A DNA stretch of 38,820 bases from a virus (lineage: Duplodnaviria; Heunggongvirae; Uroviricota; Caudoviricetes), in IMG/VR virus record IMGVR_UViG_2908572912_000003; one strand, given 5' to 3'. Position numbers and translations under genes: made by a program. Below the pieces are notes generated by a model. That model was not told the origin of the DNA, made no database searches, and saw only the letters and a program-made list of their open reading frames with translations. Below are positions 7,619 to 38,820 of the stretch, one piece after another; the stretch's first letter is position 1, and each line of letters starts with the position of its first letter.

Positions 7619-7666
7619 GGTATACGCTTTTAGGTATACATCCTACCGTATACCTAAACGTATACC
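7619..7666. promoter_or_regulatory. Cluster of GTATAC-core repeats in the integrase upstream region (possible Int or regulator binding sites)
   Basis: GGTATAC at 7619-7625 and 7633-7639, and CGTATACC at 7647-7654 and 7659-7666, within 70 bp upstream of the int start. Confidence 0.3.
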
Positions 7667-7712
7667 AATAATCACCGGATTTAGCCGGATGTTCTCGGAC
7701 AACGACAGACAC

Positions 7713-7744
7713 AAAAAAGCCCGCAGGGCTTATGCCGTGCGGGC
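7713..7744 (-). terminator. Rho-independent terminator following the tmRNA-like 3' end
   Basis: GCCCGCA...TGCGGGC hairpin (7719-7744) with an A-run on the plus strand (7713-7718), giving a U-tract on the minus strand just downstream of the att core. Confidence 0.5.
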
Positions 7745-7780
7745 TTTCTGTACTTCACTGGACGTATCCGGATCATGATT

Positions 7781-7808
7781 TGGTGGGCTGGCGGGAGTTG
7801 AACCCGCG
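7781..7808 (-). other. Attachment-site core: 3'-terminal 28 nt of a tmRNA (ssrA)-like gene, not a complete RNA gene
   Basis: Minus strand reads CGCGGGTTCAACTCCCGCCAGCCCACCA, nearly identical to the recalled E. coli ssrA 3' end (GCGGGTTCAACTCCCGCCAGCTCCACCA); the sequence 5' of it is AT-rich and not RNA-like. Confidence 0.55.
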
Positions 7809-7937
7809 TTCTATTAATGGTAAATAACTGTAATTTATAGCTTTTATTTGAAGTAGATCACATGCGTATCCTTTGTGGATACTTGAGGTATATGTTATAT
7901 ATAAAACATATATTTACATGAAGTAAATGGATGTTTT

Positions 7938-8561
7938 ATGACAATACAGGAAATAATTCAGCAACGTAATATTCGTAGCTTGTTTCATTTTACACATAGC
8001 GATAATCTAACTTCCATTTTAGATAATGGCCTTATGTCTCGTTCAGAACTTGATAATGAAAATAATGAATATAATTATAATGATGAAGAAAGGATTGATG
8101 GTCATCCAGATGCGATTTGTTTGTCCGTAAGTTACCCTAATGCAAAAATGTTTTATAAATATAGATGTTTAAAGCCTGGGGACTGGGTTATATTAGAAAT
8201 CAATCCATCTGTTCTTTGGGCTAAGGATTGCGCTTTTTATCCTACCAACGCAGCTTCGAATAACGTTCGTTTTATAAATCTTGATTTGATGAAAGGAGCT
8301 GAGGCATTTAGTGCTTTGTTTTCAGAGAATGTTTTTGGGATTCAGAGAGATGTAAACCTTCCAAGTGAGTATACGACGGATGTTCAAGCTGAAATACTGG
8401 TATTTGAAAAAATTCCTCCCTCATATATTATAAGCACTTTTCACCCTAACAAAGAATCTGCTGAACATTTCAAGAGATTATATCCACAGACAATACAGAG
8501 ATCTTATGATAATCTTAATGCTAGAACATTTTATTCTCAGAGGCATTATTATTTAGGATAA
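7938..8561 (+). CDS. DarT-like DNA ADP-ribosyltransferase toxin (DUF4433-like)
   Basis: 207 aa, AT-rich; N-terminal LFHFTHSDNLTSILDNGLMS resembles the recalled DarT NAD-binding motif; candidate catalytic Glu in AEILVFE near residue 150-155; a partner ORF follows 4 bp downstream. Confidence 0.5.
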   Translation: MTIQEIIQQRNIRSLFHFTHSDNLTSILDNGLMSRSELDNENNEYNYNDEERIDGHPDAICLSVSYPNAKMFYKYRCLKPGDWVILEINPSVLWAKDCAFYPTNAASNNVRFINLDLMKGAEAFSALFSENVFGIQRDVNLPSEYTTDVQAEILVFEKIPPSYIISTFHPNKESAEHFKRLYPQTIQRSYDNLNARTFYSQRHYYLG

Positions 8562-8564
8562 GTT

Positions 8565-9254
8565 ATGGCCGTTAGACCTGTTTTCGTCCCTACAAACGCA
8601 GGGAACTTACTATCGATCACGAAGGATGTGGATTTTCCTTGGGCTCCTGGTATGTCTAAAACGCAAAAGCAAAAATCGATCAGGGCGTTACATACAGCAG
8701 CGAATGAGCAGGGATTGAACTCTTTGTTGGAAATTTCTAGTAAATCCGAAGATGCGCTGGGGGTAGCACTTAGTGCATTTAATCTAAGAATAAAGACGAA
8801 AAGACTTGGGAAAGAGTTTACAGTTGAATCTGCATTTCAAGCAAGTAAAGTATTTGAAATGGGAGGACCATATGTCGATATCTTAGATAAAAGCTCGATA
8901 GAAGCAAAAAAAGATATGAGATTAAAGGAATCTGGGGGATTAGTTAACTTCAAATTTTATAATACAATATGGCCCATTGTCCCCAGGACTGCTTTTTATG
9001 ATTGGTTATATTTGAGTGCGCTCAATCAAAACAAAAATCTAGCACTCCATCTATTAAATTTTGATGGATTTACTGATATTGAATTTAATCCAGCGAAATC
9101 TATTAATTGCCAAGCCAGAGCAGCTGCACTTTTTGTCTCTTTAGTAAGACGAAATATGTTAGATGATGTTTTATCTTCAAAGGATGGTTTTTTATCAAAA
9201 TTAGCATCTCATTATGGTGTTGAAAATTATTCTATTCAACATACATTGATATGA
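8565..9254 (+). CDS. Partner of the DarT-like gene; possible NADAR (YbiA-like) domain antitoxin
   Basis: 229 aa with AGGA ribosome-binding site; LSAFNLRIKTKRLGKEFTVESAFQASKVF resembles the YbiA/NADAR segment FSNFAAWPIKVDGKTWPTSEHYFQAQKF; no macrodomain motifs (NAAN/GGGV) found. Confidence 0.4.
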   Translation: MAVRPVFVPTNAGNLLSITKDVDFPWAPGMSKTQKQKSIRALHTAANEQGLNSLLEISSKSEDALGVALSAFNLRIKTKRLGKEFTVESAFQASKVFEMGGPYVDILDKSSIEAKKDMRLKESGGLVNFKFYNTIWPIVPRTAFYDWLYLSALNQNKNLALHLLNFDGFTDIEFNPAKSINCQARAAALFVSLVRRNMLDDVLSSKDGFLSKLASHYGVENYSIQHTLI

Positions 9255-9256
9255 AT

Positions 9257-9280
9257 AATGGCCTGTAAAGGCCATTTTTA
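9257..9280. terminator. Bidirectional terminator between the convergent DarT-partner and integrase genes
   Basis: AATGGCC tgtaaa GGCCATT hairpin flanked by T-runs, filling the 32-bp gap between the two stop codons. Confidence 0.5.
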
Positions 9281-9286
9281 TCTAAA

Positions 9287-10456
9287 TTAATATCTATTTT
9301 TTCTATTTAAAGATGTATTTCCATCATATTCTTTGAGGTATGAGCCATAATGTCTAAATAACATCTCTGGTCCTTTATGACCCATTTGAACCGCAAGCCA
9401 AAACAGGTTTGCTCCCCGGCTGATATGGCTGGTGGCGAATGTATGTCTGGTTTGATATGGGTTTCTGTAACGAATACCTGCTTTCCGCAATGTTGGCACC
9501 CATGCTTTTTTTCTAATTGCATCAGCACTTGCCCAAGGCTTATTGGTCTTTGGATCTTCAAAGACTGTAGCATCCTTCATGAATGTAAATGGCTTCTGAT
9601 TTATCAGCGCCAACATTGCATCTTCTGTCAGTTCAACTTTACGAGTACCGGCTTTTGTCTTTGTTCCTTTGATAACACCGACAACACTTGCGCTCTGGAC
9701 ATGGGCAGTTTTTCCAACAAAGTCGATATCACGCCATCGAAGGGCACATAATTCAGAACTACGCAGGCCTGTATGTATAGCGAACCGGAACAGATTCTCC
9801 CATTGTTTGTTTCCGGCTGCTGCTAGTAATGCATCAACTTCTGCTGGTGATAGCGGATCAACCACGTAGCTGCTTTCTGCTTCTGACTTATCACTTTGGT
9901 AGCGCGAAGCAGTTACCAACGATACGGGGTTAATTTGAAGTACCCCATCGGTTACGGCTTCATCAAGTGCTGACCGCAGGAAAGATAACTGGTTGCGAAT
10001 TGTTTTTAAGGTCGTTTTCTGGCTTTGAATCCACGCTTTCAGGATTGCTGGTGTTAATTCACTTGCAGGGCAAATGTGGAGTGAGGCTAACGCACTACGG
10101 CATTTTTTATAACCACCAATCGTAGATGGTGAAAGTTTTCTCGTTTCGCAGATTTCAAGGTATTCGTCCAGGTACATTTTTACCGTTTTGCCTGCAGCAG
10201 CATTACCAAAAATTTTCAAACGAGCAGAACGGGGAAAATATTCCGCATAAATGAATGTTCCCCTTTCGATCTTATTATGAATTTCGCCGAGTGTGCGCTC
10301 GGCGTATTTAATGTTCTTTGGTGTTACTTCCAGATTGGAAAGAGGCTCACGACATCTAACTCCTTTGTAGGTGAAAGTTATATTGATCGTTTCGCCCTGG
10401 CGGTGTTTCCTGATTGTTACGCCGCGCGGTAGTTTGAGCAGTTTTGTCTGGCCCAT
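9287..10456 (-). CDS. int: Prophage tyrosine integrase
   Basis: 389 aa; catalytic region motifs (HTGLRSSELCALRW, HTFATSHI, GHKGPEMLFRHYGSY). Confidence 0.9.
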   Translation of the reverse strand: MGQTKLLKLPRGVTIRKHRQGETINITFTYKGVRCREPLSNLEVTPKNIKYAERTLGEIHNKIERGTFIYAEYFPRSARLKIFGNAAAGKTVKMYLDEYLEICETRKLSPSTIGGYKKCRSALASLHICPASELTPAILKAWIQSQKTTLKTIRNQLSFLRSALDEAVTDGVLQINPVSLVTASRYQSDKSEAESSYVVDPLSPAEVDALLAAAGNKQWENLFRFAIHTGLRSSELCALRWRDIDFVGKTAHVQSASVVGVIKGTKTKAGTRKVELTEDAMLALINQKPFTFMKDATVFEDPKTNKPWASADAIRKKAWVPTLRKAGIRYRNPYQTRHTFATSHISRGANLFWLAVQMGHKGPEMLFRHYGSYLKEYDGNTSLNRKNRY

Positions 10457-10623
10457 TTTGCAACCTCACTAAGATCAATCCACCTCTCCTTAACGCCTTC
10501 AACCTTTAAAACCTGAACACCTTCACGCCAAACACCGCGCTGTACACGTTTGTTTATTGCTTCAGGAGTTTCGCCAGTTTCTTTGCAATAAGTTGAGATT
10601 GGAACACAATCGAGGTTCAGCAT
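10417..10623 (-). CDS. xis: Excisionase-like protein
   Basis: 68-aa ORF immediately upstream of and overlapping the integrase; ATG at 10623 with GGAG upstream; a GTG at 10635 is an alternative start. Confidence 0.45.
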   Translation of the reverse strand: MLNLDCVPISTYCKETGETPEAINKRVQRGVWREGVQVLKVEGVKERWIDLSEVAKWARQNCSNYRAA

Positions 10624-10682
10624 ATGTTTCTCCACTTAGCCCGCTGCACACGGGCAGTAATATCAAATTCCAGTCCTGATAA

Positions 10683-10898
10683 TTAATTTTGTTCCCTGGT
10701 TGCTACCTGTTTTATTGGCCTGATGCTGTCCAGTAGCAGACGGCGACGCATGTTAGGTGCCCCCCAACGGTAACCAGTCTTTTTGTCGTAGGATTCACAA
10801 CGTCCGGCAACCCAGGACGTTTCAGTGGAATGTAATTTCATCCGCTTTTCACCGTCTCGGGTGATAACAATTCCTGTATGAGTTTTTATCACGCTCAT
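10683..10898 (-). CDS. Hypothetical phage early protein
   Basis: 71-aa ORF; ATG overlaps the stop of the upstream gene (ATGA). Confidence 0.45.
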   Translation of the reverse strand: MSVIKTHTGIVITRDGEKRMKLHSTETSWVAGRCESYDKKTGYRWGAPNMRRRLLLDSIRPIKQVATREQN

Positions 10899-11257
10899 TT
10901 CTTAGTCTCTGGTGCTTTCGGCATTACTGCCCAGTGAGTGATATTGACGTTTTCAAGGTCCCCGACCTGAAATGTCCACTGCCATTCTCCGGTTTCTTTT
11001 TGCCCCCAGGTGTACCAGAGAGAACGCCAGCCAATTAGCCAGCCTTCTCCGTTAGCATCGAATAACAAAACACTTTCATTTGCTGGTGGCAGTTCAGTTG
11101 ACACTGGTATTGCTTTGTTTTCCTGTGCTGCACATTTAGCTTCAAGCGCATCGAATTTGCGCACCAGGTATTCAGCATCTGTTTCATTCACTTTCAGATC
11201 TCGCGGTACACATCTCCCACGAAGAAACCCTTCCATTTCGAAAACATTCATGCACAT
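10895..11257 (-). CDS. Hypothetical phage protein with Trp-rich C-terminus (DUF551-like)
   Basis: 120-aa ORF in an operonic chain with its neighbours; C-terminal GWRSLWYTWGQKETGEWQW segment. Confidence 0.45.
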   Translation of the reverse strand: MCMNVFEMEGFLRGRCVPRDLKVNETDAEYLVRKFDALEAKCAAQENKAIPVSTELPPANESVLLFDANGEGWLIGWRSLWYTWGQKETGEWQWTFQVGDLENVNITHWAVMPKAPETKK

Positions 11258-11784
11258 TTGCGTAACTCCGATAACTCGTTAAAACGTTCCATAAACATCC
11301 CGTAGGCATGGCCCGGTGCCAGTGGAATCACGTTGAACATCTCTGTTGCGGGGATGCCTTCCAGTACAGGCCAGAAAGAGCCATCATCAAGCCCGAGATC
11401 GCGGCGTTCGGTTGCCAGCATGATGAGATCGGCATATTTCACAGGCGTGCTCATAACCGGGGGTAACCCGTATTTCTCACGGATTACGGCGTCTATTTTT
11501 TCTTCCATCCGTTTATAGTCAGGAAGAAGGCGTTTCAGTGGCGCGGGGATGTCCTGACAATAAGCTTCTGTTGCATCATGCATTAACGCTTCAAAAGCAA
11601 ATTCCTGCGGCACCAACTGGCTGCAAAGAACCGCATGTTGGGCGACGCTGTAGAAGTGCGAAAGATGACCGGCAAAGCGACAGATATTTGAAAGGGAAAC
11701 CGCGATATCGTTAATATCGATGTCGTCTTTATTTATCCTGTCATAATAAAAATGCTTCCCGGAAAAAGTTTTAATAAATGACAT
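11248..11784 (-). CDS. HD-domain phosphohydrolase (YfbR-like 5'-deoxynucleotidase family)
   Basis: His...HD metal-binding pattern (SVAQHAVL...ALMHDATEAY); ATG at 11784 with GGAG upstream (the longer ORF from 11811 starts with GTG). Confidence 0.6.
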   Translation of the reverse strand: MSFIKTFSGKHFYYDRINKDDIDINDIAVSLSNICRFAGHLSHFYSVAQHAVLCSQLVPQEFAFEALMHDATEAYCQDIPAPLKRLLPDYKRMEEKIDAVIREKYGLPPVMSTPVKYADLIMLATERRDLGLDDGSFWPVLEGIPATEMFNVIPLAPGHAYGMFMERFNELSELRKCA

Positions 11785-11911
11785 TTTGTTCTCCACGTAT
11801 ATGCGCTGCACCGCGCTGAATTCTGGTAAAAAGAATCCCTCACCATCCGGCGATTATTGAGTAAATTACGTTTCCATAAATGCCCCCGCAGGGGCATTTG
11901 CAGTAATGAAA

Positions 11912-12736
11912 TCAGGCGGTGAAAGTACCAATAAAGGTTTCTACTTTGCTGTCCTTGAATTTCTCAACAAGCAGATCACGAAATTCGTTAGCCATTTCTT
12001 CCTGCACCGCCTCCAGCTGAATAATGCGCAGAACCAGTACAGGACGATCGCCAGTGATAATACTGAGGCGTAATTTAAACGGACGTTCTTTCAGACCTTC
12101 AAACGGAACGCATTTAAATTCAAATGCCACTGGCATAATGTCTTTGGTCTTCGCTTCGACAGACTCCATCAGGGAGCGTTTGCCGCTGAAGTCATTATCT
12201 TCAAAATCAGCGGTCTGGTTTGCTTCAATCGTGATTTTACGGACAGCCGCAGCCGCTTTTGTTGCCTGAATAGCGTCACCATTAGCATCAAAGCCCACAA
12301 GATAGTCGGCCCAGTCTTCAATCCATTCTGCCAGTGACTTCTGGGAGTTACGCTCGCCGTTAACAGACAACAGAGCAGAGAACGGTGCTGTCTTTTTCAG
12401 TTTGAGTGTGGCGGTGTTATCTGCGTGACCTGGTTCATCAATAGTACCCAGGTTAAGCACACTGACGGCACGCATATTATCAGCATCGATAAAGCAGCGG
12501 GTGCCTTCATCTGCAAGATCTTTAGAATAACGGGTAAAGTCATCGATGCTGGCAGTGGAAAGCGCACCACGGAAACGGAAGCGATTTAAATTAAATTTTT
12601 CCAGATCATGAATGCGGAAATTCTCAGGCAATGCCACAGCATCGGCACCAATCTTACTGATAATTTCATTAACACCCTGAGCAGAAATAAGGGCATGGAT
12701 TTGATTAATTGAGGTTGCGTCTAAGTTCTGAGACAT
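11912..12736 (-). CDS. Phage early protein, YfdQ-like (DUF2303)
   Basis: 274-aa ORF, ATG with GAGGA upstream; sequence recalled as similar to CPS-53 yfdQ-type prophage proteins. Confidence 0.5.
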
Positions 12737-12801
12737 AATAAGTCCTCACTATATAAAGATATTCAGTGATGAGATAAATAATCAGTTAATTAAAAACGAT
12801 A

Positions 12802-13164
12802 TTAACGACCTGCTGCGCGGAGTTTTCCGTCAGGTTCACCGGCAAGAGTCAGTAACTGTCCCTGGTCTTCCTGCAGAATAGTCAGGCGACCACCGCGATT
12901 GACATACATCGGCGTTTCGGTGGTGTCTTCTTCGGAAATTTTCCCGCGGTTAGTCGGGCGAACATATGAGAGTTTGTGTTTGATTTTCACACGGTTCTCA
13001 TCAAATGGTTCGATTTCCAGGTTGAGTGAGACCTTACCTTTGGTTTTCGTGTTCATCACACCGGAAGCGACTTCACTGAGAACTGCGCCGATTTTGGTTT
13101 CAAATACGCCGCCGTCCAGCTCCCCGATAAATGCCTGCACGTCAGTACTGCGTTCGCTAGCCAT
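12802..13164 (-). CDS. Hypothetical phage early protein
   Basis: 120-aa ORF starting MASERSTDVQ... with GAGGAG upstream; the longer upstream extension to 13482 has junk-like composition. Confidence 0.5.
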   Translation of the reverse strand: MASERSTDVQAFIGELDGGVFETKIGAVLSEVASGVMNTKTKGKVSLNLEIEPFDENRVKIKHKLSYVRPTNRGKISEEDTTETPMYVNRGGRLTILQEDQGQLLTLAGEPDGKLRAAGR

Positions 13165-13632
13165 TTTGCTGCTCCTCATCATATCGACCCTGCAAGGCCG
13201 ATTAGTTTCTCCACAAAACAGAGAAGAACACCTGCGGTGGCAGCCGCCCGGATGGATTGGGTTATGAGCCCGTCGTCCGGTGATGCTCTTCTCTGTTTTG
13301 TAAAAAGGACGGTACCAGCCGGAAGCAAGGGTACAAACTGGTACCGCCAGGACTACACACAGCATAAAGTTGTGGTGCCGGGTGCCTCCCGGTGCCTGGC
13401 GAAGGTTGCACACCAGGCGGGTGGGTATCCACAGAAGGTCGACTGTCAGCCTCAACCTTAACCCGCGTGCGCTGAGCCGCATTCACCACAACGCTAAGGA
13501 TTCTCTCTGGTTGAAAATACTTAGCTGTTATGTGCCTGCTTTTAGCCACATCAGGCGAGGTGGACCTAGTTATTCCCCAACAACAAGGATTCGGTTAATC
13601 TGGTTATCCCCAACAACGCAAAAGGAAAAGAA

Positions 13633-14067
13633 ATGTCCGGTAATATCTATACGCTGTACAAATCCCACTGTGAAAATGTTGGAAAGTATCGGGGCATTGA
13701 AATCAGTGGGGTAGTGTCATCAGCCGAAATAAGCAAAGTTGAATCAAGGGCAACATTACTTACTCTTTTGGACCTTGTCTTACATGAGCACCGGAAGAAA
13801 TTCGGCACTCCCTATAATCAGTTGAATGGGAAAAAGGCTCTGGTTCACCTTATTCTGATGAAGCATCACTGGATGCCAAAACAGATTAATGAGATGAAAT
13901 TTGATGAACTTCTTCTTTCAATTCAGGATGAACTCACACTTGATAAAATAAGCGTAACCGCCCAGAAATTTTTAGATTATCGAGACTGGAGATCACAAAT
14001 TCATCACTTTGATGATTTTGACGAAAATGAATGGGATCCTAATTTGTCTGCACAATATCTAAAGTAA
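13633..14067 (+). CDS. Hypothetical acidic protein (144 aa), opposite strand to the early operon
   Basis: AT-rich ORF with AAGGAAAAG ribosome-binding site; ends 5 bp before the IS1 left end; no recognisable motifs. Confidence 0.5.
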   Translation: MSGNIYTLYKSHCENVGKYRGIEISGVVSSAEISKVESRATLLTLLDLVLHEHRKKFGTPYNQLNGKKALVHLILMKHHWMPKQINEMKFDELLLSIQDELTLDKISVTAQKFLDYRDWRSQIHHFDDFDENEWDPNLSAQYLK

Positions 14068-14127: not shown

Positions 14128-14403
14128 GTGGCTTCTGTTTCTATCAGCTGTCCCTCCTGTTCAGCTACTGACGGGGTGGTGCGTAACGGCAAAAGCACCG
14201 CCGGACATCAGCGCTATCTCTGCTCTCACTGCCGTAAAACATGGCAACTGCAGTTCACTTACACCGCTTCTCAACCCGGTACGCACCAGAAAATCATTGA
14301 TATGGCCATGAATGGCGTTGGATGCCGGGCAACTGCCCGCATTATGGGCGTTGGCCTCAACACGATTTTACGTCACTTAAAAAACTCAGGCCGCAGTCGG
14401 TAA
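14128..14403 (+). CDS. insA: IS1 InsA
   Basis: [43 protein letters not shown]... matches recalled IS1 InsA. Confidence 0.85.
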
Positions 14404-14825
14404 CCTCGCGCATACAGCCGGGCAGTGACGTCATCGTCTGCGCGGAAATGGACGAACAGTGGGGATACGTCGGGGCTAAATCGCGCCAGCGCTGGCTGTT
14501 TTACGCGTATGACAGGCTCCGGAAGACGGTTGTTGCGCACGTATTCGGTGAACGCACTATGGCGACGCTGGGGCGTCTTATGAGCCTGCTGTCACCCTTT
14601 GACGTGGTGATATGGATGACGGATGGCTGGCCGCTGTATGAATCCCGCCTGAAGGGAAAGCTGCACGTAATCAGTAAGCGATATACGCAGCGAATTGAGC
14701 GGCATAACCTGAATCTGAGGCAGCACCTGGCACGGCTGGGACGGAAGTCGCTGTCGTTCTCAAAATCGGTGGAGCTGCATGACAAAGTCATCGGGCATTA
14801 TCTGAACATAAAACACTATCAATAA
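14322..14825 (+). CDS. insB: IS1 InsB reading frame (expressed as the InsAB' transposase by -1 frameshift)
   Basis: ...[36 protein letters not shown]... matches recalled IS1 InsB. Confidence 0.8.
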
Positions 14826-14840
14826 GTTGGAGTCATTACC

Positions 14841-24586: not shown

Positions 24587-25925
24587 CATAAGCGCTAACT
24601 TAAGGGTTGAACCATCTGAAGAATGCGACGCCTCGGTGCCTCGTTAAGACGATGCCTCGCGTTCTTCAATTGCGTTTTGTAGGCTGTCAGGGATACTGTC
24701 CCACGAATGGCCACCTGTAAGCTCCAGATGACCATTTTTGTTATTCTCCACAACGAGTTAGTTCTTCTTTTCGGATCCGGCACTTCTGGGGGGGAAATCC
24801 AGCGATGGCTGGATTATGTCGTCAATTAAAAATGCGGCGAGTAGATTAGCAAATATCCACGCTTTCGCGAGTTCAGGTTCCTTTGCACGCAAAGCATCCA
24901 GGTGCAGCAAACTTTTGAGCCGCTTAAAAGCCAGTTCAATTTGCCATCGCAGACGGTAACAATCAGCCACTTGCTCTGCTGAATATTCATCTTCCGGTAA
25001 TGATGTTAGCAATAGCACATGGCCCGCTGCTTCCAGCGTTTCCGCCTGAACTACTCGTCCTTTTCGACGATTCTCGCTGAGCAGTCGGGTTTTACTGATT
25101 AATGCTTTTTCGGGAGGAAGTGATACGGCAATGAGACGTGCCGGAAAGGGAGCTCCGGCTTTTTTATTACCTGAATTGCCTATCATTACAGTGGTTTCAC
25201 CGTTCTTACCGCAATCCAGCCCGCGCAGAAAACCCATCATGTCAAAGCGCATTCCTTCTGCAGTTAACCAGCGCAATCCTCGCCAGTGAACCCGGACGAT
25301 ATAATCAGCTTCTCCAAAAGCAAGTGAGCGGATACATTCGGGACGCGAACCGAATCCCCGGTCAGCAATGCGTATCTCGTCTGCCGTTTGCGCAAATCGG
25401 TCCAGCCGTTCAGCGTCTCTGCTGTCGGTTAGCTCAAAATCAGTGAACTGACAGGTATGAGGATCATATCCCATATGTAGTCGCCATTCAGCGCTGCCGC
25501 CCCCGGGCGCACTGATTGCTGTTCCATCGACAAGACGCAATCTCTTTCCGCTTGTACAACCCGTAACTGCGGCGCGTACAGCAAGTGTTTGTGCGGCAAG
25601 TATGCCAAACCAGTCGGCGGCATTCCGCAGCCGCTTCAGGAGAGCCACGTCAGATAATGTTGCAACGTCATGGAGCTGAGCCCATGCAGTGACTTCACGT
25701 AATGACATCCCCCCGGGGCCGTAAGCCAGCCCCAGACGTAGCAGAGTTGCAGCATCACGAATTTCGCGGCGGCGGGTTAGAGCCCCGGCATTACGTGCCG
25801 AAGTATCCAGTTCTTCGGGCTTACCAATATGGGCCAGAATTGCTGACCAGTTATCGTGAGAGTAATTCATCGGCACGTTAAATCATATCAGGCGTAATAC
25901 CACAACCCTTAAGTTAGCGCTTATG
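24587..25925 (-). mobile_element. IS186 (IS4 family) insertion
   Basis: Terminal inverted repeats CATAAGCGCTAACTTAAGGGTTG (24587-) and CAACCCTTAAGTTAGCGCTTATG (-25925); direct repeats GGCTGATACC(C) on both flanks; 1339 bp. Confidence 0.85.
24758..25876 (-). CDS. insL: IS186 transposase (InsL-like, IS4 family)
   Basis: 372 aa containing MNYSHDNWSAILAHIGKPEELDTSARNAG..., matching recalled IS186 transposase. Confidence 0.85.
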   Translation of the reverse strand: MPMNYSHDNWSAILAHIGKPEELDTSARNAGALTRRREIRDAATLLRLGLAYGPGGMSLREVTAWAQLHDVATLSDVALLKRLRNAADWFGILAAQTLAVRAAVTGCTSGKRLRLVDGTAISAPGGGSAEWRLHMGYDPHTCQFTDFELTDSRDAERLDRFAQTADEIRIADRGFGSRPECIRSLAFGEADYIVRVHWRGLRWLTAEGMRFDMMGFLRGLDCGKNGETTVMIGNSGNKKAGAPFPARLIAVSLPPEKALISKTRLLSENRRKGRVVQAETLEAAGHVLLLTSLPEDEYSAEQVADCYRLRWQIELAFKRLKSLLHLDALRAKEPELAKAWIFANLLAAFLIDDIIQPSLDFPPRSAGSEKKN

Positions 25926-31744: not shown

Positions 31745-32671
31745 ATGCATCGTATAGACACGAAAACCGCGCAAAAGGATAAGTTCGGCGCGGGTAAGAA
31801 CGGTTTTACCCGTGGTAACCCCCAGACAGGCACGCCTGCCACCGATCTGGATGATGACTACTTTGACATGTTGCAGGAGGAACTTTGCAGTGTTGTGGAG
31901 GCATCCGGTGCCAGTCTGGAGAAGGGGCGGCACGATCAGTTGCTTACCGCACTTCGCGCGCTGCTGTTAAGCCGCAAGAATCCGTTTGGCGATATCAAAT
32001 CGGACGGCACGGTGAAAACGGCTCTCGAAAACCTTGGTTTGGGAGATACAAGCGGATACGTGGGACGCTGGGTGAATACCCGGGTTTTCACGTCATCAGG
32101 TACGTACACCCCGACGCCAGGAACAAAACGGATCAGGGTCACAATAACGGGCGGCGGTGGCGGAGGGGGCGGCTGTAAGGCTATATCCAATAATGAAACG
32201 TTTTTCGGTGCTGGCGGCGGGGCAGGTGGGACAGTAATCACCACGCTGATCCTGACGAAGGATAGTTATCCTGTCACTATCGGCGCAGGTGGGGCCGGCG
32301 GCGTTAGTGCGACGAACGGCCTCAAGGGCGGTGATAGCTCGTTCGGATCGGTAATAGCCCCTGGTGGTGAAGGTGGTGGAAAATCAGGAGTCACAAACAC
32401 GAACGGTGGTAACGGCGGTGTGCCAAGTACTGGCGGTATCAACATCATTGGTGGAAATGGAGGCGACGGTCAGTCCGGAAATATCGGCGTCAGCGGTGAA
32501 GGCGGAACATCGTACTGGGGGGGCGGTGGACGCGCAGGCGCTGGCGGTGGTGTTAGTGGTAAGGCATATGGTTCAGGTGGCGGTGGCGCATACGATGCCG
32601 GTTATAGCGGAACCAGTATGACAGGCGGGAAAGGTGCTGCTGGGATTTGTATTATCGAGGAGTTTGCATAA
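31745..32671 (+). CDS. Tail fibre protein, glycine-rich C-terminal region
   Basis: 308 aa; conserved N-terminus ([22 protein letters not shown]) then GGxGG-rich repeats. Confidence 0.65.
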
Positions 32672-33087
32672 TGAATGCGTCATATGCAGTTATTGAAAAT
32701 GGGATGGTTGTGAATGTCATTGTCTGGGATGGCGAGGCTGAATTCACAGTGCCGGATAATCAGCAGCTCATTGATATTTCTGATATCAGTGAGCATCCCG
32801 GAATCGGCTGGGGGTATTCAGACGGGGTATTTACTGCGCCGCTCCCTCCGGAACGTTCTCATGATGAACTGGTAGCTGACGCTGAACAGAAAAAACAGTC
32901 GCTGATAGACGCAGCAATGGCCAATATCAGCGTGATTCAGTTAAAGCTGCAGGCCGGGCGCAAACTGACGCAAGAAGAAACTACCCGACTTAACGTTGTG
33001 CTGGATTATATCGAGGCTGTGACGGCAACAGATACCAGCATTGCACCGGATTTTGAGTGGCCGGATGAACCGTGCTTCGCTGAGTAA
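32671..33087 (+). CDS. Tail fibre assembly protein (Tfa-like)
   Basis: 138 aa; ATG overlaps the fibre stop; N-terminal AVIENGMVVNVIVWDG motif. Confidence 0.6.
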   Translation: MNASYAVIENGMVVNVIVWDGEAEFTVPDNQQLIDISDISEHPGIGWGYSDGVFTAPLPPERSHDELVADAEQKKQSLIDAAMANISVIQLKLQAGRKLTQEETTRLNVVLDYIEAVTATDTSIAPDFEWPDEPCFAE

Positions 33088-33347
33088 AGTCTGTTGAGGA
33101 GAAGCGGTTTAATTGTAACTCAATTCTTTTTGTGTAATAAAAGTAGGACAAAACTGTGACACATAAAGCCTCGCAATGGTTTGCAAGGCTTTGAACGCTT
33201 CTATATTGAGGATGTGACGCGGTTTCGTTTATTTCCATTCTATATATTGATGTCGATTTTTATGAATATAGAGCATACGGATAAACTGCAGTGTGATTAG
33301 AGTCAAAGTAATAGTTGTTGACTCTAATCATTGCAAAGTGACTTTAC

Positions 33348-34415
33348 TTAATGAAATTTATCTCGGATGAATTGTTGCGATGGTTTTTCAATGAATATAT
33401 ATGACATATAGCTAATTGCCATTAATGTAAGCATGAATAAAATGAATACCTTGGGGCTGTAAAAAAGATCGCGTCCATAGCCAATCTTGTCAGCTAAATA
33501 AACAACAATGATTTGCAAAGGAAAATGTAAAAGATAAGATGAATAACTGATATCGCCCAACCATTCAATTTTTTTCCCAAAATCGTTTCGTATTGCGCTA
33601 ATTGATACAAGGAAAAATATTATGGAGGTAAATCCGAATAAGATAATTGAGAATATATCTGCTACTTGCAGGGTAAATATAACTCCCCATGAGATCAATA
33701 GAAAAACACAAGCAAAAATAAAAAATAACTTTGCGCTAATATTTTTTATGGCCGCAATCGTAATTTTATAAGTCAGACCACCAATAAAGAAAGAGAATGC
33801 GCCGATCATTATGGGATTGTTAATTTTGAAAAAGTAGTACGATAATGCAACTATTAAAATTGATATGAATGTTGTTTTTGATGTGAACTTGCATAATATA
33901 AAAAATATCATGTACATAAGTACTTCAATCGACACGGACCATGTCGGGGCGTTGAAGGACCAACCTCGCTCAAATCCCCATGATTGAATCATCAATAAAT
34001 TCAGAATGGCATGGTAAATGTCATTCATAGGATAAACAAAAAAATAATTATGACTTTTAAAGAAAATAATTTGTAATATTGCCACGACAGCAAATGTAAA
34101 TATATAAAGTGGATATAATCTACTGACACGGTTAACTATAAAAGTTTTTGCTGAGGTTTTATTGCTGTGTATATTGTCAGCGTATAGATAAAAAAATATG
34201 AATCCAGAAATCATAAAAAATAATTCGACAGCATATAAACCGTAATGATAAAAGACGGAAAAAAATTCATAAAAAGGTTGGCGGTTTATGATTATGTCAG
34301 ATGCAGCATTCTTTTTCATAAAAAAATGTTGCCAATGCCATAACACAACGGAAAGTGCGGCAAATCCTCTCAGAACATCCAGGGTATATATTCTCTTCCC
34401 AAAAACATTCGTCAC
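33348..34415 (-). CDS. Acyltransferase family 3 membrane protein (probable O-antigen/LPS acetyltransferase)
   Basis: 355 aa, polytopic membrane protein with N-terminal DVLRGFAALSVVLWH motif; strongly AT-rich; GTG start with GAGG upstream; located after the tail fibre genes. Confidence 0.8.
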   Translation of the reverse strand: MTNVFGKRIYTLDVLRGFAALSVVLWHWQHFFMKKNAASDIIINRQPFYEFFSVFYHYGLYAVELFFMISGFIFFYLYADNIHSNKTSAKTFIVNRVSRLYPLYIFTFAVVAILQIIFFKSHNYFFVYPMNDIYHAILNLLMIQSWGFERGWSFNAPTWSVSIEVLMYMIFFILCKFTSKTTFISILIVALSYYFFKINNPIMIGAFSFFIGGLTYKITIAAIKNISAKLFFIFACVFLLISWGVIFTLQVADIFSIILFGFTSIIFFLVSISAIRNDFGKKIEWLGDISYSSYLLHFPLQIIVVYLADKIGYGRDLFYSPKVFILFMLTLMAISYMSYIFIEKPSQQFIRDKFH

Positions 34416-34886
34416 AACGAACCTCTTTTAATAAAGTCAAGTGATAATGAAAGATAAATATTGTAAACGAAAAAACACTGGACTGGAACATATATCTCTG
34501 CCTGTAATTTAACCAGGATAATTTTACTAACGCAGTCATAATTCGTTCATGTATACCAGATGAAAGTACATGTTCTATGAAATAGGGTTTTGCCTGGAGT
34601 TTGAAGGTTTTTAACGATTATACCTGTTTAATCGACTCCCCATGTTTTTTGACATTATCCACCGCACACGATACTGGATGCCAGGTAAACTGATTTGCTG
34701 GCATAAAGTCACTGAGAATTTTTTACCAACAATATCTTGCCACATCTTTTCCCGCACAGTTTCGGCAATAGAATCAGCGGGCAGCGGACATCAATATTCA
34801 CCAGACATTGATCTGCCGCACTATCTGACCGGTGTCCTGCTGAGAATACTAATTTCTTTTTTTTGCAAGTGCTGTCCAATCATGAT

Positions 34887-34916
34887 TGGGGGGGGCCGGC
34901 GGAGTTGAAACCGCAG
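34887..34916 (-). other. Degenerate tmRNA 3'-end-like sequence (possible older att remnant)
   Basis: Minus strand CTGCGGTTTCAACTCCGCCGGCCCCCCCA shares the GGCGG(G)AGTTGAA(C)CCGC core with the att core at 7781-7808. Confidence 0.3.
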
Positions 34917-34966
34917 ACACGTTGTATGCAATAACGTGCTGCGGTTTAATCTTATCAATTGAATAC

Positions 34967-35836
<870 letters not shown>

Positions 35837-36143
35837 CTAAGCCTTTGAATTTACAGAGTACAAAAAAGATACTTTTCCTCATAATGTGAGCTAATTTTAT
35901 GTTTCGTTTGATGATTGGACCGGTCTCGAAAACCGTAGGCACGTAGTATGCGTTAATTTATGAACAAACTACTTGTCTGCTGTTTTTCTGTCATTAGTCG
36001 TATATAGAATGATTCTCTATGCCTAACAAAGCATCACCAGTGCTAGATTACGTTGTAGTCACTGTTTAAATATCCAGATAAAACATTTCCTTCTGGGTTG
36101 AATGAGTGATAAAGTTTCACCCATTAGACCCCTTGGAGGAATT

Positions 36144-37577
36144 ATGTCTGAATTTGAAGTGTTGGCACAGCATCTGCTGAAGGAAGCCGAGGCGGAAGAA
36201 AAGCTGCGACAGGAAAATGATAAAAAGCTTATCGAGAAAGTGCTGGAAATCTATGATCAGAAGTATGTGGCTGAATTACTGAGAAAAGTCGGAAAAAATG
36301 AGTGGAGCCGTGAAACCATTAACCGCTGGATTAATGGCAAGTGTTTACCAAAATCGTTGACTTCAGTAGAAGAGTCTCTTCTGCGTAAGATGCTACCAGA
36401 ACCACCTGCAAACCATCCGGAATATGCTTTCCGCTTCATTGACTTATTTGCTGGAATTGGAGGGATACGGAAAGGTTTTGAGGCCATTGGAGGCCAGTGT
36501 GTTTTTACCAGTGAATGGAATAAAGATGCTGTGCGTACATACAAGGCCAACTGGTTTAACGATGAACAGGTGCATAAATTCAATCTCGATATTCGGGAAG
36601 TCACGCTGAGTGATAAAACCGATGTATTGGAAACGGATGCTTATGCATATATTGATGAGCATGTGCCGGATCATGATGTGCTTCTTGCGGGGTTCCCGTG
36701 CCAGCCATTTAGCCTTGCTGGTGTTAGTAAGAAAAACTCACTTGGTCGTGCGCATGGTTTTGAATGTGAAGCACAAGGAACACTTTTTTTTGACGTGGCA
36801 CGTATTATACGAGCAAAAAAACCGGCAATTTTTGTGCTGGAAAATGTCAAAAATCTGAAGAGCCATGATAAGGGTAAAACTTTCAAAGTCATTATGGAGA
36901 CCCTTGACGAGCTGGGCTACGAAGTTGCCGATGCTGCAGAAATGGGAAAAAACGATCCAAAGATTATCGATGGGAAGCATTTTTTGCCTCAGCATCGTGA
37001 ACGCATTGTTCTGGTCGGATTTAGACGAGATCTGAATATTCACAAGGGGTTTACCTTGCGTGATATCAGTCGTTTTTATCCGGAACACCGCCCATCATTT
37101 GGTGAATTGCTGGAGCCTGTAGTCGACAGTAAATATATACTTACGCCAAAACTATGGGAGTACCTTTATAACTACGCCAAAAAGCATGCAGCCAAGGGGA
37201 ATGGTTTTGGCTTTGGGTTGGTCAATCCTGAGAATAAGGAAAGCATTGCACGCACACTTTCTGCCAGATATCACAAAGACGGATCAGAAATTCTTATTGA
37301 TCGTGGTTGGGATATGGCAACGGGAGAGGCTGACTTTATGAATGAGAGTAACCAGGCTCGTCGACCACGCAGGCTGACTCCCCGAGAGTGCGCACGCCTT
37401 ATGGGGTTTGAAAAACCTGGAGGGAAACCATTCCGTATTCCGGTTTCAGATACTCAGTCATATCGGCAGTTCGGTAACTCCGTTGTGGTGCCAGTATTTG
37501 AAGCCGTTGCCAGACTTCTGGAACCCTATATCCTCAAAGCTGTTTCTGCTGATGCTGGTAAGACTGGGCAGCCTTGA
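36144..37577 (+). CDS. ecoRIIM: DNA cytosine-5 methyltransferase, M.EcoRII/Dcm type (CCWGG)
   Basis: Motif [14 protein letters not shown] catalytic motif ([10 protein letters not shown]), ENV motif (FVLENVKNL); closely resembles recalled Dcm/M.EcoRII; ATG at 36144 with GGAGGA upstream (the track ORF starts 42 nt earlier). Confidence 0.9.
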
Positions 37578-37611
37578 GAACACCTCCCGGCCTTTTAAGC
37601 CGGGAGTCAGC

Positions 37612-38820
37612 CTATGATAGTTCAGTGTAAAGTTCTATCAGCTCAGTAATGAATGCTCCGAGCGTTATTAATTCTTCTCTAACTGCTTCTGGGTATTTTT
37701 TATGTAAAGTTGATGGTACAACGAGTCTGACACCCGCATCTTTCATTTCTCGGTATTGTGCTGAAGAAACACCTTCTTGCAGCGTAAATAAATGTACCTG
37801 ATGGATTTTATCTGCTTCATTCAGTATCTGACGCCAGCGATCTTTGCAGGTGGTCTTTACTGCCAGCATACGTAAGTTTTCTACAGGAAATTCAGCGTTA
37901 TGATATGCCTCTGCTGAAGGAAACAGGAAATCTGGTTTTTTATTACCTTCAGTAACTGCCTGAGTGGAGAAATGCCGTAGTCCGTGCTCGATAAAAAGCT
38001 TCTCTAGGTGAAGTTCAAGTGATTTACCTGCCCTTGATTTACGTCGATTACTGACAGAGTTGGCTAATGCAATAAACTCATCTACAGAATCGAACCCTTT
38101 CTTAATAATATCAAGAACATGTAATTCCTCGACGAGTAGAAAAATATCATACTCGACACGCCGACGGTCAATCAGTTGCTCATCTGGATCCTTGGAGTTT
38201 TTAGCATAATGGCCAGCAGCATATTGAATAATTTCGTTTCCAGAAGGAAAACGCTTCTTCCAGTCTTCAGGAATAACATATTTATGATTTACTGGAGTTT
38301 GCTGAAGAGACAATCCGCCCAAAATTTGTCCGGCAGGGCCGGAAATTAGGGTTCCAGGTATGATTTCGCCAATAGCAGACTCGATGATATCCTCTTCATC
38401 GGGATTGACGCAGACCCATATATCTACCTCGGAACAGTCAGTGTTCTGTTCGTTTAACCTGAAAGCAAGAATTGTGAGGGCTCCTGTATTTTCAGGGTTC
38501 TGTAATGGACTTCCTCTCCCCCAGCGCGTAATTCTTTTTTCGTTTCGGGTCTTACCAAAATAACGGTTGTTGTAATAAATTGCGCGTGCTTGGGTATCAG
38601 GGCAATCATGGGATGATACATGCGCAGTAAGGAAGACTGAAGGGTTCAGTTCGCGAGTATGATTGATAGATGGAAAAAGCTTTTCAACGATATTTGAGGG
38701 GATATAAAGTCCGACCTGATGGCCACCTGTTGCGCCTGTGTCGTTTGCAGAAAGGCGTTTGATGTAGATAAAGTAATTCCCGCTTGCGATATCAAGCAGC
38801 CAGTTATGAAAAACCGACAT
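37612..38820 (-). CDS. ecoRIIR: Type II restriction endonuclease EcoRII
   Basis: 402 aa starting MSVFHNWLLDIASGNYFIYIKRLSANDTGATGGHQVGLYIPS..., near-identical over long stretches to recalled R.EcoRII; convergent with the methyltransferase; the start codon is the last three bases of the window. Confidence 0.9.
   Translation of the reverse strand: MSVFHNWLLDIASGNYFIYIKRLSANDTGATGGHQVGLYIPSNIVEKLFPSINHTRELNPSVFLTAHVSSHDCPDTQARAIYYNNRYFGKTRNEKRITRWGRGSPLQNPENTGALTILAFRLNEQNTDCSEVDIWVCVNPDEEDIIESAIGEIIPGTLISGPAGQILGGLSLQQTPVNHKYVIPEDWKKRFPSGNEIIQYAAGHYAKNSKDPDEQLIDRRRVEYDIFLLVEELHVLDIIKKGFDSVDEFIALANSVSNRRKSRAGKSLELHLEKLFIEHGLRHFSTQAVTEGNKKPDFLFPSAEAYHNAEFPVENLRMLAVKTTCKDRWRQILNEADKIHQVHLFTLQEGVSSAQYREMKDAGVRLVVPSTLHKKYPEAVREELITLGAFITELIELYTELS

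What the first reader, a model, noticed from the sequence alone, without database searches (positions are those of the whole stretch)
33348..34415. AT-rich acyltransferase-3 gene after the tail fibre genes (candidate serotype-conversion gene)
An integral-membrane acyltransferase on the opposite strand, with much lower GC than the tail genes, sits between the tail fibre assembly gene and the att-like remnant. This is the classic position of phage O-antigen acetyltransferase genes, which alter LPS and can block superinfection.
Basis: partly seen in the sequence, partly recalled or inferred. Interest (0 to 1): 0.45.

Follow-up and report, generated by a model that had tools for sequence, protein, structure and literature searches.

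The report
Prophage acyltransferase linked to O8 antigen
A defective E. coli prophage carries an intact membrane acyltransferase gene behind its tail-fibre genes that most likely acetylates the host's O antigen (apparently the O8 polymannan), an ordinary kind of phage "serotype-conversion" gene with an unreported likely target.

Summary
Window 33348-34415 (-) is an intact 355-aa ORF with a GTG start and a good Shine-Dalgarno sequence. GC is 0.32, against 0.55-0.60 in the tail genes. It is convergent with the tail-fibre assembly gene.

It is not a close homologue of any characterised O-antigen acetylase: 26.5% identity to the TL-2011b O-acetyltransferase (which I take, from memory, to be phiV10-type) and E=0.12 against Sf6 Oac. 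Three other lines of evidence point to O-polysaccharide:
- Its 42-44% identical non-phage relatives sit inside Wzm/Wzt O-polysaccharide clusters in Pseudomonas, Xanthomonas and Massilia.
- Its enterobacterial relatives sit in prophage tail-fibre or tailspike modules.
- In E. coli the gene occurs in 48 of 5426 complete genomes. At least 18 of these are serogroup O8, although only about half of the O8 genomes were sampled (background O8 frequency about 6%; P about 1e-6 to 1e-8 per sample).

dN/dS is about 0.17. The gene stays intact in this IS-riddled prophage remnant. Its neighbours are defence cargo (PD-T4-3, an EcoRII-type restriction-modification system).

Verdict: a new member of a known kind. 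O-acetylation of the O8 mannan is inferred, not shown.

The parts
33348..34415 (-). AT3-only integral-membrane O-acyltransferase CDS (355 aa, GTG start)
34422..34427 (-). Shine-Dalgarno AAGAGG, 6 nt before the GTG start
   Evidence: Read from the sequence.
34416..34534 (-). Upstream 119 bp that travels with the gene; a promoter is presumed here (possible -10 TACAAT), which is inference only
   Evidence: The Citrobacter freundii copy shares only window 33148-34534 at 85.7%. The consensus promoter scan found nothing above chance.
33294..33330 (.). Perfect 13-bp inverted repeat (TGATTAGAGTCAA / TTGACTCTAATCA, 11-nt loop) between the convergent TAP and AT3 genes; a possible transcription stop without a T-run
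   Evidence: the repeat finder pair I13. It lies inside the block shared with Citrobacter.
32033..34939 (.). 2.9-kb block (fibre tip + chaperone + AT3 + upstream spacer) shared at 94-95% with a different prophage backbone in E. coli IAI1 and JNEC-KY175
   Evidence: blastn of the window against L013 and L014. Annotation of those loci.
32023..32046 (+). Single near-palindromic site (TCTCGAAAACCTTGGTTTGGGAGA) inside the fibre gene, read as a Gin/Pin-type invertase crossover site from my recollection of such sites; the left end of the shared block falls in it
   Evidence: One match in the window, none in 100 shuffles. There is no second site. AT3-negative relatives have an inverted second fibre/TAP set plus a recombinase here.
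31745..32671 (+). Tail fibre with a C-terminal glycine-rich domain
   Evidence: Gly_rich_2 at 4.4e-15. PHROG tail-fibre families down to 2e-92.
32647..33087 (+). Tail-fibre assembly protein (chaperone), convergent with the AT3 gene
   Evidence: Caudo_TAP at 2.1e-19. PHROG 188.
34816..34946 (.). ~130-bp repeated element ending in a hairpin; right end of the shared block. In the complete phage a second direct copy lies between dinI and the endonuclease gene
   Evidence: blastn. Alignment A2. Rfam has only a sub-threshold CssrB hit (19.9 bits against a gathering score of 76).
34967..35791 (-). Neighbouring cargo: PD-T4-3 GIY-YIG anti-phage protein (RefSeq start gives 257 aa, 34967-35740)
   Evidence: PADLOC PD-T4-3 at 4.1e-140. 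LEM-3_GIY-YIG.
36102..38820 (.). Neighbouring cargo: EcoRII-type C5-cytosine methyltransferase (36102-37577 +) and endonuclease (37612-38820 -)
   Evidence: Pfam DNA_methylase, EcoRII-N and EcoRII-C. PADLOC MTase_II and REase_II.

Best explanation
The gene encodes a stand-alone (AT3-only) transmembrane O-acyltransferase. It is carried as an accessory gene (a 'moron') behind the tail-fibre and chaperone genes of an e14/SfV-like prophage with a Mu-type baseplate. In this window the prophage is an IS-disrupted remnant.

Proposed mechanism, by analogy with modelled AT3 proteins: acetyl-CoA enters from the cytoplasm through a pore lined by R16, R96 and R99. The acetyl group is presented near H27 at the periplasmic face. 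It is then transferred to a hydroxyl of an undecaprenyl-linked O-polysaccharide after export and before ligation to lipid A-core.

The most likely acceptor in E. coli is the O8 polymannan, an O antigen made by the ABC-transporter (Wzm/Wzt) pathway. The expected consequence is an altered O8 epitope and altered recognition by phages or tailocins that use the O antigen, that is, lysogenic conversion and superinfection protection.

Shown here: AT3 membership, fold, motifs, purifying selection, genomic contexts, and O8 enrichment.
Inferred: the donor, the acceptor, the site of action and the phenotype.
For: Family and fold:
- PF01757 full length.
- R-X10-H and RXXR motifs present (motif definitions from PMC9558356).
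- D13, R16, H27, R96, R99, H135, E164, H297 and E343 are invariant across 36 subfamily members.
- AF2 model pLDDT 90.5, pTM 0.89.
- The acetyl-CoA pore model comes from PMC9833829.

Acceptor class:
- Relatives at 42-44% identity over the full length lie inside Wzm/Wzt(Wzt_C) O-polysaccharide clusters, with double-GT4 polymerases (all four), a terminal methyltransferase and nucleotide-sugar (rhamnose-type) genes (three of four). These are P. savastanoi, a Pseudomonas sp., X. albilineans and Massilia. BLASTP E-values reach 8e-107.
- Enterobacterial relatives (47-86%) lie in prophage tail modules next to fibres or beta-helix tailspikes: Citrobacter, Serratia, K. aerogenes and a metagenome contig.

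O8 link:
- The gene is in 48 of 5426 complete E. coli genomes.
- O8 wzt/wbdD is in 302 genomes.
- Samples of 60 O8 records contained 7, 8 and 8 carriers against 0.53 expected. Hypergeometric P is 7e-7 and 4e-8 for the two evenly spread samples. The third list is the best-scoring 60 records, so it is biased towards relatives of IAI1, the genome the query was taken from.
- At least 18 of the 48 carriers are O8 after viewing about half of the O8 genomes.
- Carriers span O8-cluster identity bands from 99.1 to 100%, two prophage backbones and at least three chromosomal contexts.

Selection and layout:
- dN/dS is 0.16-0.2, and the ORF is intact in a defective prophage.
- The layout matches Sf6 oac.
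Against: - No characterised enzyme is close: 26.5% to the TL-2011b O-acetyltransferase, E=0.12 to Sf6 Oac. There is no NCBIfam equivalog and no PDB sequence hit.
- The O8 association was estimated from samples, not from a full census. It is not corrected for phylogeny, and it could reflect phage host range rather than enzyme substrate. The same fibre tip without the AT3 gene is also enriched in O8 hosts (7 of about 46 confirmed, roughly 29% estimated).
- I found no report of O-acetyl groups on the O8 antigen.
- Some family members are solitary chromosomal genes with no polysaccharide context: Kluyvera and Pseudochelatococcus.
- No promoter was detected above chance, and expression is unknown.
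Confidence: 0.6

Rival explanations
1. The enzyme acylates a different envelope glycan of its host: a group 1/4 capsular K antigen or colanic acid, enterobacterial common antigen, LPS core, or periplasmic glucans. Under this view the O8 association only reflects the host range of the carrier phages, or capsule types linked to O8.
For: - AT3 proteins act on many glycans (review PMC9558356).
- E. coli itself has WecH (ECA) and OpgC (OPG).
- The fibre tip alone is also enriched in O8 hosts, so host range contributes to the association.
- K. aerogenes relatives sit next to pectate-lyase-like tailspikes, which could be capsule depolymerases.
- From my own knowledge, O8/O9 strains often carry group 1 capsules.
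Against: - Similarity to WecH is limited to 69 N-terminal residues (1e-5), and to OpgC it is nil (E=1).
- Four of five non-enteric, non-phage relatives examined are in Wzm/Wzt O-polysaccharide clusters, none in capsule, ECA or OPG loci.
- The O8 enrichment of the AT3 gene (at least 38% confirmed, about 75-85% estimated) is much stronger than that of the fibre tip (about 29%).
- K types among O8 strains are diverse, whereas the O8 mannan is the constant feature (own knowledge).
Confidence: 0.2
2. The gene is a silent or decaying passenger: horizontally acquired AT-rich DNA that is not expressed (for example H-NS-silenced), with no current function in E. coli.
For: - GC is 0.32 in a genome of about 0.51, and no promoter was detected above chance.
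- The prophage around it is defective here: IS1 truncates the terminase gene and an IS4-family element sits in the tail region.
- Three of 50 matches are 1067 nt rather than 1068 nt, and one genome keeps only 32% of the gene.
Against: - dN/dS is 0.16-0.2 between E. coli alleles and to the Citrobacter allele at dS about 0.4.
- All motif and invariant residues are retained.
- The gene is full length in 47 of 48 genomes, including degraded prophages.
- There is a good Shine-Dalgarno sequence.
Confidence: 0.07
3. The protein acts on a non-glycan or non-envelope substrate (a lipid or small molecule, as AT3 enzymes do in antibiotic pathways), or works as an intracellular anti-phage effector like its neighbours.
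For: - It lies in a cargo region with PD-T4-3 and an EcoRII-type restriction-modification system.
- Some AT3 proteins acylate macrolides and similar compounds (PMC9833829).
Against: - There is no PADLOC match.
- There are no biosynthetic-cluster neighbours.
- The recurrent contexts are O-polysaccharide clusters and phage receptor-binding modules.
Confidence: 0.05

Closest known systems
Oac (OacA) of Shigella phage Sf6, the serotype-converting O-antigen 2-O-acetyltransferase of rhamnose I
   Same: AT3-only architecture. Prophage accessory gene on the opposite strand, convergent with the receptor-binding gene, in the tail-to-integrase cargo region. The proposed role in receptor masking follows PMC9558356.
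   Different: No significant pairwise similarity (E=0.12 over 86 residues). The Sf6 host O antigen is Wzy-dependent, whereas the presumed target here is the ABC-transporter-dependent O8 mannan. Here defence genes separate the AT3 gene from the integrase.
O-acetyltransferase of Escherichia phage TL-2011b, which I take from memory to be of the phiV10 type (phiV10 Oac modifies the O157 antigen and blocks adsorption)
   Same: E. coli temperate-phage AT3-only protein placed beside the tail gene. It aligns over the full length. The phiV10 function is reported in the review PMC9558356.
   Different: Only 26.5% identity (5e-14). Different phage type and a different host serogroup (O103/O157 against O8). 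The relation of TL-2011b to phiV10 was not checked here.
Uncharacterised AT3 genes inside Wzm/Wzt O-polysaccharide clusters of Pseudomonas syringae-group, Xanthomonas albilineans and Massilia
   Same: Same subfamily: 42-44% identity end to end, with a shared N-terminal signature LDVLRGxAALSVVxWHWQHFF and about 65 invariant residues. Same biosynthetic logic as the E. coli O8 cluster (Wzm, Wzt with Wzt_C, terminal methyltransferase in three of four, multi-domain GT4 polymerase).
   Different: Chromosomal, part of the O-polysaccharide cluster rather than phage cargo. The likely sugar is rhamnose rather than mannose (rml/GDP-sugar genes present). None is experimentally characterised to my knowledge.
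OafA/OafB (Salmonella) and OatA, AT3-SGNH fusion acetyltransferases
   Same: Same AT3 membrane domain with R/K-X10-H and RXXR motifs. The pore model for acetyl-CoA comes from OafB.
   Different: No SGNH domain here (355 aa, a single Pfam domain). No cluster of GATC sites upstream like the one I recall for the phase-variable gtr/oafB promoters: only one GATC in 550 bp.
Opposite-strand AT3 gene in the tail module of Serratia temperate phage vB_SspM_BZS1
   Same: An AT3 gene embedded in reverse orientation among tail genes of a temperate myovirus of Enterobacterales, proposed by the authors to modify O antigen (PMC7556043). The Serratia prophage relatives found here have the same layout.
   Different: The BZS1 protein was described as 26% identical to Sf6 Oac, so it is probably in another AT3 clade. 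It was not compared directly here.

Membership tests
Acyltransferase-3 (AT3, PF01757) / TmAT superfamily | Match to the family profile above the curated threshold over most of its length | tested here: met
   87.3 bits against a cutoff of 31, E=1.4e-24, profile positions 2-320 of 326.
Acyltransferase-3 (AT3, PF01757) / TmAT superfamily | R/K-X10-H motif in TM helix 1 and RXXR motif after TM helix 3 (PMC9558356) | tested here: met
   R16-X10-H27 and R96-V-S-R99. All four residues are invariant in 36 subfamily members. Motif definitions.
Acyltransferase-3 (AT3, PF01757) / TmAT superfamily | Ten-helix transmembrane fold shared with acetyl-CoA-dependent transmembrane acyltransferases | tested here: met
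Acyltransferase-3 (AT3, PF01757) / TmAT superfamily | Acyl-CoA-dependent acyl transfer to an extracytoplasmic acceptor | not testable with these tools
   Requires biochemistry.
AT3-only (Oac/WbaK/Lag1-type) as opposed to AT3-SGNH (OafA/OafB/OatA-type) | No fused periplasmic SGNH/GDSL domain | tested here: met
   355 aa with a single Pfam domain spanning residues 10-334. No SGNH-like ORF in the 260-bp and 550-bp flanks.
Phage-encoded serotype-converting O-antigen acetyltransferases (Oac class) | Carried by a temperate phage in the cargo region beside the receptor-binding genes | tested here: met
   It follows the fibre and chaperone genes and is convergent with them. The carrier phage also exists as a 43.7-kb circular form with integrase and attP. 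Sf6 has the same layout.
Phage-encoded serotype-converting O-antigen acetyltransferases (Oac class) | Close sequence relationship to an experimentally characterised O-antigen acetylase | tested here: not met
   Best is 26.5% (5e-14) to the TL-2011b O-acetyltransferase. Sf6 Oac gives E=0.12. The best hit in the phage collection is 38% to an unannotated faecal contig. OacB, OacC, OacD, WbaK and Lag1 were not compared.
Phage-encoded serotype-converting O-antigen acetyltransferases (Oac class) | Restriction to hosts of one O-antigen type (substrate specificity) | tested here: met
   Strong enrichment in O8: 7, 8 and 8 carriers in three lists of 60 O8 genomes against 0.53 expected. At least 18 of 48 carriers are confirmed O8. 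This is sampled, not exhaustive, and not corrected for phylogeny.
Phage-encoded serotype-converting O-antigen acetyltransferases (Oac class) | Gene-dependent O-acetylation of LPS, change of serotype, block of phage adsorption | not testable with these tools
   Requires LPS chemistry, serology and phage assays.
Gtr-type O-antigen glucosylation cassette (considered) | GtrA flippase, GtrB bactoprenol glucosyltransferase and a serotype-specific GtrC | tested here: not met
   No such ORFs or domains between the chaperone gene and the end of the window.
WecH (ECA O-acetyltransferase) / OpgC (OPG succinyltransferase) orthologue (considered) | Full-length similarity to the E. coli K-12 protein | tested here: not met
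   WecH: 36% over 69 N-terminal residues only (1e-5). OpgC: E=1.
Catalogued anti-phage defence protein (PADLOC) (considered) | Match to a PADLOC model | tested here: not met
   No hit for the AT3 protein, whereas its neighbours hit PD-T4-3, MTase_II and REase_II.

The most novel reading that the evidence does not exclude
A distinct AT3 clade is specialised for homopolymeric O-polysaccharides made by the ABC-transporter (Wzm/Wzt) pathway, and it moves between chromosomal O-polysaccharide clusters and phage tail modules. In E. coli it would O-acetylate the O8 polymannan. That would split the textbook 'unmodified' O8 serogroup into acetylated carriers (roughly 12-15% of O8 genomes) and non-acetylated strains. 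It would have been installed in place of the alternative tail-fibre cassette and invertase of a Mu/e14-type invertible segment.
Probability: 0.45. Interest if true: 0.5.

Novelty: new member of a known kind. Interest (0 to 1): 0.36.

Why it matters
O8 is a common E. coli serogroup (about 6% of complete genomes here). It includes livestock and ETEC strains and, from my own knowledge, the ST410 lineage. Its polymannan is also the model for ABC-transporter-dependent O-antigen assembly. A prophage-borne acetylation of this polymer would be an unrecognised source of antigenic and phage-receptor heterogeneity. That is relevant to serotyping, to O-antigen vaccines and diagnostics, and to phage or tailocin therapy. 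It would also give a tractable AT3-only enzyme that acts on a fully polymerised, exported glycan. If the target turns out to be something else, this is simply one more uncharacterised phage accessory acyltransferase.

Tried and rejected
1. Nucleotide search of the phage collection with 32600-35000 gave no match. tblastn found only distant phage AT3 genes.
2. NCBIfam gave no model.
4. Rfam on 32900-36200 gave only a sub-threshold CssrB hit, rejected as a match.
5. The promoter/terminator consensus scan gave counts no higher than in shuffles (10 promoter-like sites against 11.1 expected, 1 terminator-like site against 2.5). No promoter is claimed.
6. I looked for a gtr/oafB-style Dam/OxyR phase-variation signature, as I recall it. 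There is a single GATC in the 550-bp upstream region, so this was rejected.
7. I looked for a second invertase crossover site or an invertase that would make the fibre-AT3 block invertible. There is none in the window, so the 'invertible AT3' idea was rejected.
8. Xanthomonas oryzae wxoD as a characterised relative: it is 327 aa and Oac-like judging by its published primer sequence, so probably another clade, and the one paper citing it conflates it with phiV10 Oac. It was not used as evidence.
9. Literature searches for O-acetylated O8, or for a prophage acetyltransferase in O8, found nothing.
Sampling was used instead.
11. One call failed on a range limit and one on a term that was too short.
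Full report
**1. What is in the sequence**

- The ORF list gives a 355-aa ORF at 33348-34415 on the minus strand with a GTG start.
- The sequence shows AAGAGG six bases upstream of that GTG.
- RefSeq annotates the same 1068-nt CDS in near-identical E. coli loci as 'acyltransferase family protein'.
- GC falls from 0.53-0.62 in the tail genes to 0.30-0.33 across the gene. Gene GC is 0.316 and GC3 is 0.323.
- Upstream on the plus strand are a tail fibre with a glycine-rich C-terminal domain (31745-32671) and a Caudo_TAP chaperone (32647-33087), so the AT3 gene is convergent with them.
- A perfect 13-bp inverted repeat lies in the 260-bp gap between the two stop codons.
- No att site or integrase follows within the window. 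Next come a 550-bp spacer, a GIY-YIG protein that is the PD-T4-3 defence protein (4.1e-140), and an EcoRII-type methyltransferase and endonuclease.
- A 43,680-bp circular record from E. coli AH02 is the excised form of a 98% identical phage. It shows the full order: chaperone, AT3, PD-T4-3, methyltransferase, endonuclease, DinI, integrase, dusA fragment (attP).

**2. What the protein is**

- It matches Pfam Acyl_transf_3 end to end (E=1.4e-24) and PHROG 3333 'O-acetyltransferase' (1.4e-40).
- It has no NCBIfam model and no PADLOC model.
- The two motifs that the AT3 review names as hallmarks are present as R16-X10-H27 and R96-VS-R99 (motifs from PMC9558356). They are invariant in an alignment of 36 subfamily members, together with D13, H135, E164, H297, E343 and others.
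- An AlphaFold model built on that alignment is confident (pLDDT 90.5, pTM 0.89) and all-helical.
- Foldseek finds no solved relative.
- There is no SGNH domain, so the protein is AT3-only like Oac, WbaK and Lag1.
- The mechanism I propose is taken by analogy from the OafB model (PMC9833829): cytoplasmic acetyl-CoA is threaded through an arginine-lined pore and the acetyl group is delivered near the TM1 histidine at the periplasmic face.

**3. Is it a homologue of characterised O-antigen acetylases?**

Only at family level. BLASTP results:

| Comparison | Result |
|---|---|
| O-acetyltransferase of Escherichia phage TL-2011b (from memory a phiV10 relative) | 26.5% identity, 5e-14 |
| Sf6 Oac | E=0.12 |
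| WecH | 1e-5, over 69 N-terminal residues only |
| OpgC | E=1 |

The best hit in the phage collection is 38% to an unannotated faecal contig.

**4. Evidence from relatives**

The large protein search found 2033 relatives. I examined their genomic contexts.

In prophages:
- Citrobacter freundii (86% identity): the gene is the last gene of the same kind of Mu-baseplate prophage, again opposite to the chaperone gene. Only the AT3 unit (window 33148-34534) is shared; the fibre is different.
- Serratia marcescens, a metagenome contig and Klebsiella aerogenes (47-51%): the gene lies on the opposite strand inside prophage tail modules, between a Gp53-like fibre and large fibres or beta-helix tailspikes.
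- A paper on Serratia phage BZS1 notes the same kind of arrangement (PMC7556043).

Outside phages:
- Relatives at 42-44% identity in P. savastanoi, another Pseudomonas, X. albilineans and Massilia all lie inside ABC-transporter O-polysaccharide clusters.
- All four clusters have Wzt with the Wzt_C carbohydrate-binding domain and double-GT4 polymerases; Wzm is visible within the fetched stretch in the X. albilineans and Massilia loci. The first three also have a terminal methyltransferase and rhamnose-type nucleotide-sugar genes.
- Two relatives are solitary: Kluyvera and Pseudochelatococcus.

The recurrent partners of this clade are therefore O-polysaccharide assembly genes and phage receptor-binding proteins.

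**5. The O8 association**

- The gene is present in 48 of 5426 complete E. coli genomes at 97-99.6% identity. These include IAI1 and a strain named O8:H8.
- I took the O8 cluster from IAI1 and searched with O8-specific genes.
- wbdD+wzt is present in 302 genomes. In an evenly spread sample of 60 of them, 7 carry the AT3 gene.
- wbdA is present in 346 genomes. In a spread sample of 60, 8 carry it, one of them a partial copy.
- The best-scoring 60 records for wzt+wzm include 8 carriers. This list is biased towards relatives of the query genome, IAI1.
- The expectation under independence is 0.53 per 60. Hypergeometric P is 7e-7 and 4e-8 for the two spread samples.
- By my count, the three lists cover about 152 distinct O8 genomes and confirm 18 of the 48 carriers as O8. 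This extrapolates to roughly 36-41 of 48.
- Carriers occur across O8-cluster identity bands (99.1-100%), in two unrelated prophage backbones and in at least three chromosomal contexts: dusA, next to yfhH, and near fdeC.
- The same fibre tip plus chaperone occurs without the AT3 gene in about 210 further genomes. It is enriched in O8 hosts more weakly: 7 of about 46 sampled genomes confirmed, about 29% estimated.
- The E. coli O8 cluster has the same architecture as the clusters that host the non-phage relatives: Wzm, Wzt, a terminal methyltransferase and a multi-domain GT4 polymerase. This makes the O8 polymannan the most economical candidate acceptor.
- Caveats: the census is sampled, it is not corrected for phylogeny, and phage host range alone could create part of the signal. 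I found no report of O-acetylated O8.

**6. How the gene got there**

- IAI1 and JNEC-KY175 carry the gene in a different prophage backbone (wedge-1/DUF2612 baseplate).
- They share a 2.9-kb block with the window at 94-95% identity, covering 32033-34939. It holds the glycine-rich fibre tip, the chaperone gene, the AT3 gene and its upstream spacer.
- The left breakpoint falls in a unique near-palindrome, TCTCGAAAACCTTGGTTTGGGAGA (32023-32046; no matches in 100 shuffles). From memory, it has the form of a Gin/Pin/Cin invertase crossover site.
- In AT3-negative relatives the fibre tip and chaperone are followed by an inverted second chaperone and fibre-tip set and a recombinase gene. This is the classical invertible host-range segment.
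- The window has no second crossover site and no invertase.
- The AT3 gene therefore occupies the place of the alternative fibre cassette and invertase. This also explains its opposite orientation.
- The right end of the shared block is a ~130-bp element with a terminal hairpin (34816-34946). In the complete phage a second direct copy flanks the PD-T4-3 and restriction-modification block.

**7. Is it functional?**

- Pairwise dN/dS is 0.16-0.2 among E. coli alleles and to the Citrobacter allele (dS about 0.4).
- The prophage in this window cannot be viable. An IS1 transposase gene (14322-14825) abuts the last ~170 nt of the large terminase gene, an IS4-family element sits in the tail region (24758-25876), and unrelated integrase-bearing DNA lies to the left.
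- Even so, the AT3 ORF is intact. The same holds in the degraded MSI001 copy.
- Expression signals were not established.

**8. Verdict**

This is a real, intact, selectively maintained AT3-only acyltransferase in the cargo region of a prophage. It is a well-known kind of gene. The added value is the specific, testable prediction that it acetylates the O8 polymannan. That prediction rests on a strong statistical association and on clade context, and it has not been demonstrated.

My confidence levels:

| Claim | Confidence |
|---|---|
| AT3 acyltransferase | about 0.97 |
| Acts on a surface glycan | about 0.85 |
| Acts on O antigen | about 0.6 |
| Acts on O8 mannan specifically | about 0.45-0.5 |

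Noticed in passing
window 34967-35791 (-), 36102-37577 (+), 37612-38820 (-): The cargo next to the AT3 gene is a stack of anti-phage systems: a PD-T4-3 GIY-YIG protein (4.1e-140) and a complete EcoRII-type methyltransferase/endonuclease pair. The tail-to-integrase region of this phage therefore acts as a defence hotspot.
   Followed up: partly
window 32023-32046 (+): A single site of the Gin/Pin crossover form (as I recall such sites), TCTCGAAAACCTTGGTTTGGGAGA, lies inside the tail-fibre gene with no partner site and no invertase. AT3-negative relatives (L027, L028) keep the inverted second fibre/chaperone set and a recombinase. The fibre here is locked in one orientation.
   Followed up: yes
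window 34816-34946; L002 19400-19538: A ~130-bp element contains the palindrome CCAATCATGATTGG and ends in a hairpin. In the complete phage it is present as two direct copies (76% identity) flanking the PD-T4-3 and restriction-modification block. It also marks the right end of the block shared with the IAI1 prophage. Its nature is unknown; Rfam gives only a sub-threshold CssrB hit.
   Followed up: partly
window 14322-14840 and 24758-25876: An IS1 transposase ORF directly precedes the last ~170 nt of the large terminase gene, and an IS4-family (IS421-like) transposase sits between the tape-measure gene and the DNA-circularisation gene. The prophage is a defective remnant.
   Followed up: partly
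window 1-14000: The left third of the window is not part of this prophage. It carries two tyrosine integrases (6394-7596 and 9287-10456, both -), a 743-aa ORF with no Pfam hit (4137-6368 -) and a 'Derepression' family protein (266-799 -). Bases 1-165 match the IS5/ISKpn26 region of locus L001.
   Followed up: no
L002 (NZ_CP081704.1) and NZ_CP081794.1: Strains AH02 and CT01 each have a chromosomal copy and a ~43.7-kb circular 'plasmid' record of the AT3-bearing phage. This suggests spontaneous excision or replication of an active phage, although its terminase gene is annotated as frameshifted.
   Followed up: no
AT3 alleles in NZ_CP081794.1, NZ_CP035879.1, NZ_CP063503.1: Three of the 50 matches span 1067 nt rather than 1068 nt. 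This could be a real homopolymer frameshift (the gene has several T7 runs) or a sequencing error.
   Followed up: no
one search hits on ~90-kb plasmids (e.g. NZ_CP195583.1, NZ_CP158325.1): The same glycine-rich fibre tip and chaperone occur at 88-89% identity on ~90-kb plasmids, which from their size and fibre genes I take to be P1-like phage-plasmids. This receptor-binding module is therefore exchanged among several temperate phage types. Genomes carrying it are themselves enriched in O8.
   Followed up: partly
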